A stretch of DNA of 64,000 nucleotides from the human T2T-CHM13v2.0 reference genome, Homo sapiens. Each line of letters opens with the position of its first letter. The first letter of the stretch is position 1. Under the pieces are notes generated by a model. The model saw only the letters and a list, made by a program, of their open reading frames with translations, was not told the origin of the DNA and made no database searches. Position numbers and translations under genes: made by a program. The DNA is taken from the NCBI RefSeq assembly GCF_009914755.1, contig NC_060932.1. The stretch is one strand, 5' to 3'. Below, one piece after another: positions 43,111-46,198 of the stretch.

Positions 43111-45774
43111 AGGAATCTAATGCGCTGCCACTCGAACTTCAGGAAGACAAGAGCTCAGACACTGAAAACCAGTCAGCAAGGCCAAAACAAGAGAGCCCCC
43201 AGTTCTGCCAACTTGGTGCAATTTTTACTATAACCATAGCTGGGAAAAATGAAGAAGAAAAAAATTCACTGGAGTTGCAATGAATATTTAAACATTGCGT
43301 CAAGTTTAAAGCATGATGAGTGTCAAGCCAGTTGAGTTTTCTGCATTAACTTCAGCTGACAACTCAGTTTATATCTATTATAAATGTCACTATTTGTTGG
43401 GGGAAAAATAATCTTCCTCTTTTTTATTTTTAATTTTTTTTAGGGATAGGATTTCATTGTGTTGCCCAGGCTGAAGTACAGTGATGTGATCATTGCTCTC
43501 TGCAGCCTTGAACTCCTTGGCTCAAGTGGTCCTCCTGCCTCAGCTTCCTGAGTAGCTGAGACTTCAGAGTCACATCACCATGCCCAGCTAATTTTTTTTT
43601 TTTTTTTTTTTTGGTGGAGATAGGACCTTACTATGGTGCCCAGGCTAGTCTCAAACTCGTGGCCTCAAATGGTCCTCCAGTCTTGGCCTCCCAAAGTATT
43701 GGGATTATAAGTGTGAGCCATTGTGCCCAGTTTAATTTTCTTCTTTTGCCAAAGCAAAGCTAATAATTTTTTTATAGCTAAGATTTAATTATGTTTGGAT
43801 TAAACCTTCTCTTCAGTATGTATCTCATACTTTTCTTTTGCTAAATACTTATCTAGCTTGCATTTTTTTCCACATTAAGGAGAATAGCTCTTGGAAATCT
43901 TATATTCTCCTAACTCTTTATCTTAAAATGCTGCCACAAAATCTTAGACATTGAAAAGTTATTAAGGTTCTAGTTGAGAGTTTACTAACAACAAAAAGAA
44001 GGATAATTGGCAAAGAAGACGTGGATTGAGTGAGCCACATAGCCCCTTTCCTGTTCTGGTTTCTTGGTGGCATTTGCAGCAGTGCCTCTATGATGCCTGA
44101 GCAAAACTGGTTTATTGGGAAGTGATGTAAACCATACTGCCAGTGCTTTTGCTCAGCACTTGGGCACTTCGTGGCCGTGTGTCTCATATGATGTTCATAA
44201 TGCTTTTTTTTCCCTCTCCTTCCCCCCGTAATACTTTATGAATAGATGTTTCCACTTCTGAATAGTTCTCCGATTAGAATAGCAGTTACAAAATGGGTAA
44301 GACTTCACCTCGTCCTTTAAAACAGGAAAATTGATAGAATTCCTCCACCTCCTTTCATTACTGAGGCTGTCAGATGATTCTTTAAGCAAAACCCCAGTGT
44401 TCTCTTGTCTGATGAAGTCAGTGTAAGTGATGGTATTTTTACATTGACTTTAATATGAAAGGAACTGTTTAATTGAACGGTTTCATCTCAAGGCCAGGCT
44501 TTAGACTCCTTCTTGGGCTCATGCATGGGATCCTTCTTTTGCACACCTGTGGCCTCCCTGGAACTACTTCTGGTGGTTTCCCTGGACTTAGTATCCCCCA
44601 AACCTGGCAGCCCAGGGCCTAGTGACAGGCAGAGGAATGTATTGCTCTTGCTCTGTGGGGTCAGGTAGGGCCGGGGGAGGTCCTGCATGAATATTTTCAG
44701 TGCTGATTCAGAAAGAGCATTGGGCATACACTTCAGGAAACCCTACCTGGAAGCTACAGCAGCACTGCTCTATCCTAGACTGACCACTTCAGATATTTCC
44801 AACGCGGAGCTGGATGTGGCTAGGAACCGGCTCCCAGCTGAATAGCTTGTGCTGAGTCATTATCAAGTTGCATTTCCTGGCTCAACCAAAGATAAGCAGG
44901 GAAGAACCTAAATGAAAAATGACTTTCAGACTGTGATTTGGGTTAGTATACCACCTCAGGGCAGCAATGGAGTCATGACTGCACAGACACGGGAAAGGAT
45001 CTGGTTGCAGAAACCAAGTGAGTCAGTGATGATGTATCATCATTCTAAAAAACGTACCTGTACTTTCTTTTTTTTTTGAGACGAGTTTCACTCTTATTGC
45101 CCAGACTGGACTGCAATGGTGCGATCTTGGCTTACCACAACCTCTGTCTCCTGGGTTCAAGCAATTCTCCCACCTCAGCCTCCCGAGTAGCTGGGATTGC
45201 AGGCATGTGCCACCACTGCTTGGCTAATTTTGTATTTTTAGTAGAGACAGGGTTTCTACATGTTGGTCAGGCTGGTCTCGAACTCCCAACCTCAGGTGAT
45301 CTGCCCATTTTTGCCTCCCAAAGTGCTGGGATGATAGGCGTGAGCCATTGCGCCTGGCCGTAACAGTGTACTTTCTTTCTTTCTTTTTTTTTTTTTTGAG
45401 ATGGAATTTCGCTCTGTAGCCCAGATTGGAGTGCAGTGGCGTGAATTCAGCTCACTGCAACTTCCGCCTCCCAGGTTCAAGCAATTCTCCTGCCTCAGCC
45501 TCCTGAGTAGCTGGAATTACAGGTGCGCTCCACAACGCCCAGCTAATTTTTTTTTTCTAGAAGTTGAATTGTACAAAGTACACTTATATTTTGACACCTG
45601 ATCCAAAACACAGTCATGTACCACATTACAATGTTTCAATCAATATATAGCATACAAAAAAAAAACAACAACAACAGTAGTCCTATGAGATAAGAGCTGA
45701 AAATTCCTTATTACTTAAATGTTATTTTGAAAGTCAACATTTTTCTTCTACATATTTTACTCATAAGCATGGCA

Positions 45775-45907
45775 AAATGTTACAGGTCTCATTGTCACCA
45801 CTGCAATATGCATACTGTGATGGAAGCATAACCTATCTCAATTTAGCCACATTAACTATTTTTGGACACCTTGATCAACAGTGCCCATTCTCATCTAGCA
45901 TGAGGCT
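45775..45907 (-). ncRNA. SNORA1B: Retroposed H/ACA snoRNA SNORA1 (ACA1) copy, probably the locus annotated SNORA1B
   Basis: Minus strand reads GCCTCATGCTAGATGAGAATGGGCACTGTTGATCAAGGTGTCCAAAAATAG...GCAGTGGTGACAATGAGACCTGTAACATTT, nearly identical to ACA1 as I recall it. The ACA box lies 3 nt from the end. Confidence 0.85.
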
Positions 45908-46198
45908 TTTTTTTTTTGGAGACGGAGTCTCTCTTTGTTGCCCAGGCTGGAGTGCAGCGGCGCAATCTCCACTCACTGCAACCTCCGCCTCTTGGGTTCC
46001 AGCGATTCTCCTGCCTCAGCCTCCCGAGTAGCTGGGACTACAGGTGTGTGCCACCACACCCAGCTAATTTTGTATTTTTTAGTACAGACAGGGTTTCACC
46101 ATATCGGCCAGGCTGGTCTCGAACTCCTGACTTCGCGATCCGCCCACTTCAGCCTCCCACAGTGCTGGGATTACATGCGTGAGCCACTGCGCCCGGCC
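45908..46198 (-). mobile_element. Full-length AluS (AluSg-like) fused 5' of the snoRNA copy
   Basis: Start GGCCGGGCGCAGTGGCTCACG, intact B box GAGTTCGAGACC (46115-46126), A-tail abutting the snoRNA 5' end, no TSD of its own. Confidence 0.9.

What the first reader, a model, noticed from the sequence alone, without database searches (positions are those of the whole stretch)
45774..46198. Predicted Pol III transcription unit: Alu promoter reading into an H/ACA snoRNA and terminating exactly at its ACA-UUU end
Seen: on the minus strand a full Alu has a near-consensus A box (TGGCTCACGCATG) and a perfect B box (GAGTTCGAGACC, 46115-46126). It runs through its A-tail straight into the SNORA1 copy. 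I found no TTTT anywhere in the Alu or snoRNA until ...TGTAACATTTT (45777-45774), the position where a mature H/ACA RNA ends. Known: four T's can terminate Pol III, and H/ACA motifs can stabilise longer RNAs (telomerase RNA, AluACA RNAs). Inference: the copy is antisense to LYN, so it cannot be processed from LYN intron 1, but it has its own potential promoter. It could give a 425-nt Alu-H/ACA hybrid RNA, i.e. a snoRNA released from its host intron by an Alu Pol III promoter.
Basis: partly seen in the sequence, partly recalled or inferred. Interest (0 to 1): 0.8.

Follow-up and report, generated by a model that had tools for sequence, protein, structure and literature searches.

The report
SNORA1B: snoRNA retrocopy behind an Alu
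The Alu-then-snoRNA arrangement is real, but it is a leftover of ancient copy-and-paste (retrotransposition) events, and nothing found here shows that the Alu actually drives the snoRNA.

Summary
On the minus strand there is a full Alu with A and B boxes, an A11 tail abutting SNORA1B, and no TTTT until 45777..45774, which gives a 425-nt unit.

These features have ordinary origins.
- SNORA1B with its 218-nt 3' flank is a retrocopy of the chr11 SNORA1 locus. Homology begins at the snoRNA 5' end and stops at the last base of the parental intron, followed by an A-run. This is Weber's "Type-2 snoRT".
- The T4 is inherited, because the parent also reads ACATTT|T.
- Alu, snoRNA, intron tail and A-run lie inside an older Alu, between perfect 17-bp target-site duplications.
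- A TTTT-free path of this length is typical of Alus. The B box to T4 distance is 349 nt against a window median of 324, and 19 of 45 Alus reach at least 349.
- The older Alu's left arm offers a second A/B promoter on the same path.
- 2 of 92 H/ACA loci show the same formal layout.
- The snoRNA's divergence fits neutrality, though the test has low power.

No expression or Pol III occupancy data could be consulted. In one published survey about 0.05% of antisense/intergenic Alus were expressed. The analogous Alu/Pol III proposal for C19MC microRNAs was later overturned.

Verdict: an ordinary retrotransposition by-product. The Pol III hybrid RNA remains possible, at about 5%.

The parts
46217..46344 (-). 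Left part of an older Alu, the target of the insertion. It has its own A box (46332..46320) and B box (46270..46259) and contains no TTTT.
   Evidence: It aligns column for column with other Alus and breaks at the same Alu column where the right part resumes.
46200..46216 (-). 5' copy of the 17-bp target-site duplication AAAAATTAGCTGGGCGT, which is part of the older Alu's linker. One extra A follows at 46199.
   Evidence: It is a perfect 17/17 match to 45551..45535. The bottom-strand context TTTTT/AT fits the L1 endonuclease site; the consensus is recalled.
45918..46198 (-). Full-length Alu body. It looks AluS-like by recalled diagnostic positions. A box 46186..46174, B box 46126..46115.
   Evidence: It carries 14 CpG, the most among 40 window Alus.
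45907..45917 (-). A11 run. This is the Alu A-tail, directly abutting the snoRNA. RefSeq and Rfam count its last A (45907) as snoRNA nucleotide 1.
   Evidence: The tail is short for the window: 7 of 35 Alu tails are 11 nt or less, against a median of 19.
45775..45907 (-). SNORA1B, an H/ACA snoRNA retrocopy of SNORA1.
   Evidence: Rfam RF00408 scores 154 bits over model positions 1-135. There are 3 mismatches in 129 aligned bases plus one 3-nt indel against the chr11 parent, and all 3 substitutions are derived in this copy.
45774..45777 (-). TTTT. It consists of the last three U of the ACAUUU end plus the first base of the copied parental intron.
   Evidence: The parent has the identical ACATTTT.
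45557..45774 (-). 218-nt copy of the parental host-gene intron downstream of SNORA1. It ends exactly at the intron's last base (...CTTCTAG).
   Evidence: 86% identity over query positions 2-351; 13 mismatches in 194 aligned bases, 6 gap events. The exon bounds of the parent are confirmed by the spliced copy L005.
45547..45556 (-). A10 run. About 5 A are a remnant of the retrocopy's poly(A) tail (45556..45552) and 5 A begin the 3' TSD.
45535..45551 (-). 3' copy of the 17-bp target-site duplication.
45384..45534 (-). Right part of the older Alu with its own A-rich tail.

Best explanation
SNORA1B is an L1-mediated retrocopy of a SNORA1 processing intermediate, not a purpose-built transcription unit.

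The template RNA came from the chr11 multi-snoRNA host gene (TAF1D by recall). It already had the mature snoRNA 5' end. It still carried the whole downstream part of its intron up to the last base before the 3' splice site, and it had been adenylated. This is what is expected of a debranched intron trimmed 5'->3' up to the snoRNP and tailed before 3' trimming. It matches Weber's Type-2 snoRNA retroposon in its rare 'entire downstream intron' form.

The cDNA ended up directly behind the A-tail of an AluS-like element. The Alu, snoRNA, intron tail and A-run together sit inside an older Alu between perfect 17-bp target-site duplications. Two L1 routes fit, and I cannot separate them.
(a) The Alu inserted first, and the snoRNA copy later landed in its A-tail, so its own duplication is hidden in the A-run (about 50%).
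(b) One event, in which the L1 reverse transcriptase reached the snoRNA 5' end and switched template onto an Alu RNA's A-tail (about 40%).

- The A and B boxes are those every reasonably preserved Alu carries.
- The lack of TTTT is generic.
- The TTTT at the ACA+3 position was copied from the parent.

From flank divergence and a recalled neutral rate, the event is roughly 25-35 million years old.

Shown: the anatomy, the parentage, the duplication and the inherited T4. Inferred: the nature of the RNA intermediate, the route, the age, and that the locus is transcriptionally silent or nearly so on this strand.
For: - Parentage. Window 45907..45557(-) matches G000:C11:93648181-93648513(-) at 86% over query positions 2-351 of 351. 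That locus holds SNORA18, SNORD5, SNORA8, SNORA1, Z40, SNORA32 and SNORA25 in a row.
- Boundaries. Homology starts at snoRNA nucleotide 2 (G of GCCTC) and ends at ...CTTCTAG, where the parent continues GACCC... and reaches GTAAGT after a short exon. The partly spliced older copy L005 joins that exon to downstream exons, which confirms the splice sites.
- The 3,333-nt parent locus gave 0 Alu HSPs, so the Alu was not copied from chr11.
- A perfect 17/17 duplication AAAAATTAGCTGGGCGT lies at 46216..46200 and 45551..45535. The older Alu is broken at one Alu column. No duplication lies between the Alu tail and the snoRNA.
- The parent reads ACATTT|T as well. The other three copies read ACATTT|G, ACACTT|T and ACATTT|C.
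- The T4-free distance is ordinary: 19 of 45 window Alus reach 349 nt or more.
- Divergence is 3/129 in the snoRNA (all derived here) against 13/194 in the flank. If only this copy drifts, 4.3 snoRNA changes are expected, P(<=3)=0.37.
- snoRNA copies sitting right behind a same-strand Alu tail recur. In 92 H/ACA loci of 7 families these are L001, L076 and L086 (motif test), plus L034 and L093 by inspection.
- The review PMC10557570 (passages) describes debranching, XRN 5' trimming, PAPD5 adenylation and PARN/TOE1/exosome 3' trimming.
Against: - No transcription, Pol III occupancy or methylation data could be consulted, so 'silent' is an inference from priors.
- The locus carries a RefSeq/HGNC gene name, which may reflect some read support.
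- This Alu keeps 14 CpG, the highest of 40 window Alus, and the older Alu next to it keeps 10. That could mean germline hypomethylation, which would be compatible with an active element.
- The covariance-model score equals the parent's (154.0 against 153.5 bits), so the H/ACA fold is not visibly decayed.
- The neutrality test has little power because it rests on 3 events.
- Route (a) needs the A-runs to have shrunk: 11 + about 5 A now, against a median single Alu tail of 19.
- Route (b) needs the switch to land in the A-tail rather than at the end of a Pol III trailer.
Confidence: 0.78

Rival explanations
1. The Alu's internal A/B-box promoter recruits TFIIIC/TFIIIB/Pol III. Transcription starts at about 46198, or at about 46344 from the older Alu arm, runs through the A-tail and SNORA1B, and terminates at the T4. 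The product is a 425-nt (or 571-nt) Alu-H/ACA hybrid RNA, stabilised at its 3' end by dyskerin-complex binding and at its 5' end by the triphosphate and SRP9/14.
For: - A box with one change, a perfect B box, and no TTT/TTTT until ACATTTT.
- An intact H/ACA model score.
- In the predicted fold of the 425-nt RNA, the 3' hairpin and the upper 5' stem of the snoRNA persist.
- The highest CpG retention among window Alus.
- The antisense-in-intron position is the class in which Conti et al. expect autonomous Pol III Alus (passages).
Against: - The prior is very low. 386 of 846,877 intergenic/antisense Alus were expression-positive in seven cell lines, and LYN is absent from that main text.
- All the 'design' features are inherited or generic.
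- 2 of 92 H/ACA loci (L001, L044) show the same formal layout: a same-strand Alu B box within 420 nt, no TTTT, and a T4 within 6 nt of the snoRNA end.
- In the minimum-energy fold, the basal stem of the 5' hairpin is replaced by pairing with the Alu right arm.
- H/ACA proteins are loaded co-transcriptionally via NAF1 on Pol II transcripts (review passage). Whether this works on Pol III transcripts is, to my recollection, doubtful, and Richard et al. 2006 was not held.
- The C19MC precedent for the same inference was overturned (abstract).
- The snoRNA shows no sign of constraint.
Confidence: 0.05
2. SNORA1B is expressed at a low level, but from Pol II. Antisense or enhancer-type transcription through LYN intron 1 passes over the copy, H/ACA proteins assemble co-transcriptionally, and exonucleases trim to a 133-nt snoRNA. 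The Alu plays no part.
For: - H/ACA assembly is co-transcriptional and splicing-independent (review passage).
- The supplied gene table lists several RefSeq enhancer and silencer elements in this intron.
- The copy scores as well as the parent on the family model.
- The locus has a curated gene name.
- One scRNA-seq paper lists SNORA1B among highly variable genes (passage).
Against: - No minus-strand gene model is in the supplied table.
- The array study reports identical values for SNORA1 and SNORA1B (fold change 2.0, p 0.0307), which indicates cross-detection rather than independent signal.
- Weber's rule that snoRTs outside sense introns are not expressed.
- Divergence is compatible with neutrality.
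Confidence: 0.15
3. Sub-question of origin. The Alu and the snoRNA copy were integrated in one event as a Buzdin-type chimeric retrogene formed by L1 reverse transcriptase template switching. The alternative is two successive insertions.
For: - A single perfect 17-bp duplication brackets both parts, and none lies between them.
- The Alu is full length at its 5' end.
- The snoRNA part starts at its exact 5' end, where a run-off reverse transcriptase would switch.
- The two A-runs are short: 11 and about 5 beyond the TSD.
- Weber accepts a single bracketing TSD as the criterion and found one such snoRT chimera (passage).
Against: - An insertion into a pure A-tail hides its own duplication, so the same picture arises from two events.
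- Same-strand Alu tails directly upstream of snoRNA copies recur (L076, L086, L034, L093). In L034 and L086 a 5-nt and a 2-nt non-A spacer separate tail and snoRNA, which fits sequential insertion better.
- There is no Pol III 3' trailer between the Alu tail and the snoRNA.
- The age comparison is inconclusive. By my reading of the list, about 11-12 private non-CpG changes occur in about 230 Alu sites, against about 9.5 in 323 for the snoRNA copy's branch.
Confidence: 0.4

Closest known systems
Type-2 snoRNA retroposons (snoRTs; Weber 2006, PLoS Genet, PMC1687206; passages read)
   Same: It starts at the mature snoRNA 5' end, carries parental downstream intron sequence, has an A-run at the 3' end, shows a target-site duplication, and uses an L1-type target site. 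The 'entire downstream intron up to its 3' splice site' form is described there as rare.
   Different: Here the duplication brackets an Alu as well. The copy is antisense to its new host gene, so by Weber's rule it has no host transcript to be processed from.
Chimeric retrogenes made by L1 template switching (Buzdin et al. 2002/2003; cited in Weber 2006. The original papers were not held; content recalled)
   Same: Two unrelated RNAs are joined head to tail. The 5' part is a full-length small Pol III RNA, the 3' part is polyadenylated, and there is one bracketing duplication.
   Different: The 5' part ends in its internal A-tail rather than at the transcript's 3' end. A two-step origin cannot be excluded.
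The proposed Alu-driven Pol III transcription of C19MC microRNAs and its refutation (Bortolin-Cavaille et al. 2009, PMC2691840, abstract read)
   Same: The same inference is made: A and B boxes of an upstream Alu are taken as the promoter of a downstream small-RNA gene.
   Different: For C19MC the microRNAs proved to be processed from introns of a Pol II transcript. Here no Pol II host on this strand is annotated, so the question stays open.
Telomerase RNA and AluACA RNAs (mentioned in the introduction of PMC4914119, passage read; Jady et al. 2012 was not held)
   Same: In telomerase RNA an H/ACA domain at the 3' end stabilises a longer RNA. In AluACA RNAs, Alu sequence and H/ACA proteins meet.
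   Different: Telomerase RNA is a Pol II transcript. In AluACA RNAs the Alu itself folds into the H/ACA-like structure and the RNAs are intron-processed. Here the H/ACA part is a true SNORA1 copy, separate from the Alu.
Pol III-transcribed snoRNAs: yeast SNR52 (review PMC10557570, passage read) and plant dicistronic tRNA-snoRNA genes (recalled, not checked)
   Same: A type-2 Pol III promoter upstream of a snoRNA.
   Different: Those are box C/D snoRNAs released by dedicated processing (RNase Z in plants, recalled). I know of no H/ACA example in humans, and none was found here.

Membership tests
SNORA1 family of box H/ACA snoRNAs (Rfam RF00408) | Covariance-model score above the gathering threshold over the full model | tested here: met
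   154.0 bits against a gathering score of 70, model positions 1-135, E 3.2e-30. The parent scores 153.5.
SNORA1 family of box H/ACA snoRNAs (Rfam RF00408) | ACA box three nucleotides from the 3' end; hairpin-hinge-hairpin-tail fold | tested here: met
   The copy ends ...GUAACAUUU. Two hairpins are seen in the CM alignment and in the single-sequence fold.
SNORA1 family of box H/ACA snoRNAs (Rfam RF00408) | H box ANANNA in the hinge | tested here: inconclusive
   Read by eye from the and alignments. Neither this copy (hinge AAAUUGAGAUAGG) nor the parent (AAAUUGAGACAGG) has a perfect ANANNA there. They differ by one C>U, which keeps a G-U pair in the 3' stem.
SNORA1 family of box H/ACA snoRNAs (Rfam RF00408) | Accumulates as a dyskerin-bound RNA | not testable with these tools
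   No expression or CLIP data were available. Papers naming SNORA1B give no independent signal.
Type-2 snoRNA retroposon (Weber 2006) | Begins at the mature 5' end of the snoRNA | tested here: met
   Homology to the parent begins at window 45906 (G of GCCUC). Upstream of it is only the A-run.
Type-2 snoRNA retroposon (Weber 2006) | Contains downstream intron sequence of the parental host gene | tested here: met
   218 nt against 204 nt of the parent, with 13 mismatches in 194 aligned bases. It ends at the intron's last base.
Type-2 snoRNA retroposon (Weber 2006) | 3' A-rich tail and flanking target-site duplication | tested here: met
   A10 at 45556..45547 and a perfect 17-bp duplication. The duplication also encloses the Alu, so it may belong to the Alu alone.
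Pol III type-2 (Alu) transcription unit | A box and B box at Alu spacing, with a T>=4 terminator downstream and none before it | tested here: met
   However, 19 of 45 window Alus have an equal or longer T4-free path.
Pol III type-2 (Alu) transcription unit | Occupancy by TFIIIC/BRF1/Pol III and a transcript with the predicted ends | not testable with these tools
   No ChIP-seq, CAGE or RNA-seq was available.
Chimeric retrogene by L1 template switching | One target-site duplication around both parts and none between them | tested here: met
   This is not decisive, because an insertion into a pure A-tail would leave no recognisable duplication.
Chimeric retrogene by L1 template switching | The 5' part is a complete copy of the donor RNA up to its 3' end | tested here: inconclusive
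   The Alu is complete at its 5' end but stops in its A-tail (A11), with no Pol III trailer or oligo-T.
AluACA RNA | The H/ACA-like fold is formed by Alu sequence itself | tested here: not met
   The H/ACA part is a SNORA1 copy with chr11 parentage. The Alu is a separate upstream module.

The most novel reading that the evidence does not exclude
Retrotransposition accidentally built a self-sufficient H/ACA gene. The Alu's internal Pol III promoter (or the older Alu arm upstream) transcribes through SNORA1B and stops at the inherited ACAUUUU. The product is a telomerase-RNA-like hybrid with a 5' Alu domain and a 3' H/ACA domain. It would express a copy that still has the ancestral length of the 5' guide pocket, which the human chr11 parent has since lost by a 3-nt deletion. 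That would be the first human H/ACA RNA made by Pol III, and a counter-example to the rule that snoRNA retrocopies need a host gene.
Probability: 0.04. Interest if true: 0.7.

Novelty: new member of a known kind. Interest (0 to 1): 0.25.

Why it matters
As it stands, the locus is a clean textbook fossil. It preserves the exact ends of an H/ACA snoRNA maturation intermediate: a mature 5' end, an untrimmed intron tail running to the last intron base, and an added A-tail. It also shows how snoRNA copies cluster behind Alu tails.

It is a useful caution too. An Alu with good A and B boxes, a T4-free path and a T4 at a 'meaningful' place can arise entirely from inheritance and from generic Alu properties. 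This is the reasoning that misled the C19MC field.

Only if the hybrid RNA were shown to exist would it matter more widely. It would then be a new way for an intron-dependent RNA class to gain autonomy.

Tried and rejected
- Later Alu insertion at the snoRNA 5' end. Rejected, because there is no duplication of GCCTCATG... on the Alu's 5' side and the site is not an L1 endonuclease site.
- The Alu copied together with the snoRNA from chr11. Rejected, because the 3,333-nt parent locus gave 0 Alu hits.
- A Pol III read-through transcript of a master Alu-snoRNA locus as the source of the whole insert. Rejected for two reasons. The insert continues past the T4 through a T-run that is T7 in the parent (read by eye from the and sequences) and T10 here. 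Also, none of the other four SNORA1 loci has a same-strand Alu abutting it.
- Dating the Alu against the snoRNA copy to separate one event from two. A majority consensus of window Alus was too CpG-decayed to give clean non-CpG distances, so this is inconclusive.
- A-run lengths as a discriminator. Suggestive only.
As a result, the Alu expression tables of PMC4333407, the snoRNA tables of PMC4914119 and Weber's Figure S2/Table S1 could not be checked for this locus.
- Buzdin 2003, Jady 2012 and Richard 2006 were not held.
- Searches for print coverage. 'SNORA1B' returned 3 papers, none on its origin or transcription. 'SNORA1'+'LYN'+'snoRNA' as whole words returned 0 papers.
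Full report
**Observation.** On the minus strand the window reads as follows.
- An older Alu left part starts at 46344, with A box 46332..46320 and B box 46270..46259.
- The word AAAAATTAGCTGGGCGT lies at 46216..46200, followed by one extra A.
- A full-length Alu spans 46198..45918, with A box TGGCTCACGCATG at 46186..46174 and B box GAGTTCGAGACC at 46126..46115.
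- An A11 run lies at 45917..45907.
- SNORA1B lies at 45907..45775.
- Then come 218 nt of unique sequence, an A10 run at 45556..45547, and the same 17-nt word at 45551..45535, which continues into the right part of the older Alu.

Rfam's SNORA1 model matches 45907..45775 at 154 bits (gathering score 70) over the whole model. The only TTTT, and indeed the only TTT, between 46198 and 45774 is at 45777..45774.

**Where the snoRNA came from.** A search of the window's own assembly with the snoRNA plus its 3' flank found a chr11 locus matching 86% over positions 2-351 of 351. That locus carries SNORA18, SNORD5, SNORA8, SNORA1, Z40, SNORA32 and SNORA25 in series. It is therefore the multi-snoRNA host gene; the name TAF1D is recalled, not tested.

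The pairwise alignment shows three things.
- Homology begins at the G of GCCUC, the snoRNA 5' end.
- Homology ends at ...CAACTTCTAG. At that point the parent continues with GACCC... and, after a short exon, GTAAGT.
- An older SNORA1 copy on chr11 (L005) retains this intron tail and the exon, and then jumps to a downstream parental exon. This shows that the boundaries are real splice sites.

The 3,333-nt parental locus contains no Alu (0 Alu HSPs).

SNORA1B is thus a retrocopy of an RNA with three properties. It had the mature snoRNA 5' end. It carried the complete downstream part of its intron up to the intron's last base. It had an added A-tail. This is what one expects of a debranched intron trimmed 5'->3' up to the snoRNP and adenylated before 3' trimming, steps summarised in the review PMC10557570 (passages). 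It matches Weber's Type-2 snoRNA retroposons, for which inclusion of the entire downstream intron is called rare (PMC1687206, passage).

**The terminator.** The parent reads ACATTT followed by T, exactly as SNORA1B does. The three other family copies, which lack the parental flank or have diverged, read ACATTT|G, ACACTT|T and ACATTT|C. The T4 'exactly at the ACA-UUU end' is therefore inherited sequence, not something acquired at this locus.

**How the Alu came to sit there.** The older Alu is broken at a single Alu column. The 17-nt word is duplicated perfectly on both sides of the block Alu + A11 + snoRNA + intron tail + A-run. There is no duplication between the Alu tail and the snoRNA, and the sequence 5' of the Alu does not repeat the snoRNA start. 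A later Alu insertion at the snoRNA's 5' end is therefore excluded.

Two L1 routes remain.
- **Route (a).** The Alu inserted first, and the 17-bp duplication is its own. The snoRNA copy later landed in its A-tail, where its own duplication would consist only of A.
- **Route (b).** One event, in which the reverse transcriptase ran off the snoRNA 5' end and switched onto an Alu RNA's A-tail. This would be a Buzdin-type chimera, for which Weber accepts a single bracketing duplication as the criterion.

Evidence for route (a):
- Among 92 loci of seven H/ACA families in this genome, a same-strand Alu 3' end lies within 70 nt upstream in 3 (L001, L076, L086). Inspection adds L034 and L093.
- In L034 and L086 a short non-A spacer separates tail and snoRNA.
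- No Pol III trailer follows the Alu tail.

Evidence for route (b):
- The A-runs are short. There are 11 A plus about 5 beyond the duplication, where the median single Alu tail in the window is 19 nt (7 of 35 tails are 11 nt or less).

An attempt to date the Alu against the snoRNA copy was inconclusive. I put (a) near 50% and (b) near 40%.

**Is the layout more than chance?**
- Among 45 Alu-like A+B box pairs in the window, the B box to first TTTT distance has a median of 324 nt, and 19 of 45 equal or exceed this Alu's 349 nt.
- The perfect B-box 12-mer occurs in 10 of the 45, counted by eye from the list.
- The older Alu arm upstream has consensus A and B boxes and no TTTT, so it would give a 571-nt product by the same logic.
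- Across the 92 H/ACA loci, 3 have a same-strand Alu B box within 420 nt upstream and no TTTT up to the snoRNA end (L001, L003, L044).
- 3 of the 92 have their first T4 ending within -1 to +6 nt of the snoRNA end (L001, its parent L002, L044).
- Two loci satisfy both conditions (L001 and the SNORA70 copy L044).

The arrangement is uncommon but not unique, and each component has a mundane origin.

**State of the copy.**
- Against the parent, the snoRNA has 3 mismatches in 129 aligned bases. All three are derived in SNORA1B when polarised with the other copies.
- By my reading of the CM alignment, one substitution lies in the 5' pocket, one in the apical loop, and one is a C>U that keeps a G-U pair in the 3' stem.
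- The flank has 13 mismatches in 194 aligned bases (JC 0.070).
- If only this copy drifts, 4.3 snoRNA changes are expected. Observing 3 or fewer has P=0.37, so there is no sign of constraint, though the test has little power.
- With a recalled neutral rate of about 1.1e-9 per site per year, the flank distance suggests roughly 25-35 million years.
- The model score equals the parent's (154.0 against 153.5 bits).
- The snoRNA alone folds into two hairpins. In the 425-nt RNA, the 3' hairpin and upper 5' stem persist, but in the minimum-energy fold the basal 5' stem pairs with the Alu right arm.

**Transcription.** No ChIP-seq, CAGE, RNA-seq, CLIP or methylation data were available.
- Conti et al. 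(PMC4333407; passages and tables) scored 1,295 of 1,123,747 Alus as expression-positive, and 386 of 846,877 intergenic/antisense Alus. LYN is not in the main text, and the two chr8 loci named there are at 144.5 Mb. Their supplementary lists were closed.
- H/ACA proteins are loaded co-transcriptionally through NAF1 (review passage). Whether that works on Pol III transcripts I can only recall as doubtful.
- The same inference for C19MC microRNAs, with Alu A/B boxes as a Pol III promoter, was overturned in favour of a Pol II host transcript (PMC2691840, abstract).
- Of the 3 papers that a search for SNORA1B returned, one reports identical values for SNORA1 and SNORA1B, indicating cross-detection. 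One lists it among variable genes in scRNA-seq. In one the term was not found in the held main text.
- No paper combines SNORA1, LYN and snoRNA.

One observation points the other way. This Alu retains 14 CpG, the most among 40 window Alus, and its older neighbour retains 10. This could reflect youth or germline hypomethylation.

The best-supported account is that SNORA1B is a Type-2 snoRNA retrocopy lying behind an Alu tail inside an older Alu, and that its apparent Pol III 'design' is inherited or generic. I put that account at about 0.78.

The locus belongs to a known kind. Its main value is as a clean fossil of an H/ACA maturation intermediate and as a caution about reading promoters from Alu boxes.

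Noticed in passing
L002 1705..1834 (G000:C11:93648385-93648514, minus strand): The chr11 parent SNORA1 in this assembly is 130 nt long. It lacks 3 nt (within ...UCUAGAUGAGAAU...) in the 5' pocket. These 3 nt are present in the Rfam consensus, in SNORA1B and in the chr2 and chr16 copies, and the chr11:19.7 Mb copy also has the longer form. The parent therefore lost them after the retrocopies were made.
   Followed up: partly
L005 (G000:C11:19711173-19711328 and flanks): An older SNORA1 copy starts at the snoRNA 5' end, keeps part of the downstream intron and the next exon, and then joins to a far-downstream parental exon. It is a retrocopy of a partly spliced host transcript (Weber's Type 3).
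   Followed up: partly
L003 (G000:C2:203533775-203533927): A SNORA1 copy with only about 15 nt of parental 3' flank, an A13 tail and a duplication containing ATCAGTGGTT. It is a short-extension snoRNA retrocopy, which shows that SNORA1 was retrocopied from differently trimmed intermediates.
   Followed up: partly
L034 (G000:C17:68147218-68147356 and flanks): A SNORA8 copy lies 5 nt behind a same-strand Alu A18 tail. It carries its downstream intron and host exons, with the SNORA1-containing intron spliced out.
   Followed up: no
L044 (G000:C5:171906443-171906577 and flanks): A SNORA70 copy has a same-strand Alu B box 325 nt upstream, no TTTT in between, and a TTTT ending 4 nt past the snoRNA. 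This is the same formal 'Alu to H/ACA to T4' layout as SNORA1B. Coding-like sequence lies downstream; it may be a ribosomal-protein retrocopy, which was not tested.
   Followed up: no
window 46198..45918 and 46344..46199 / 45546..45384: The full Alu keeps 14 CpG dinucleotides, the most among 40 alignable Alus in the window. The interrupted older Alu around it keeps 10, placing it among the top four. This may reflect local germline hypomethylation or relative youth.
   Followed up: partly
window 45360..45070 (minus strand): A third same-strand Alu follows directly after the older Alu's tail. The 1.3 kb around SNORA1B is thus a nest of three Alus plus the snoRNA copy, all in one orientation.
   Followed up: no
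L006 (G000:C1:237651380-237651485): About 110 nt of the copied intron tail (query positions 194-307) match a chr1 locus at 72%. Part of the parental intron may therefore be an old dispersed repeat.
   Followed up: no
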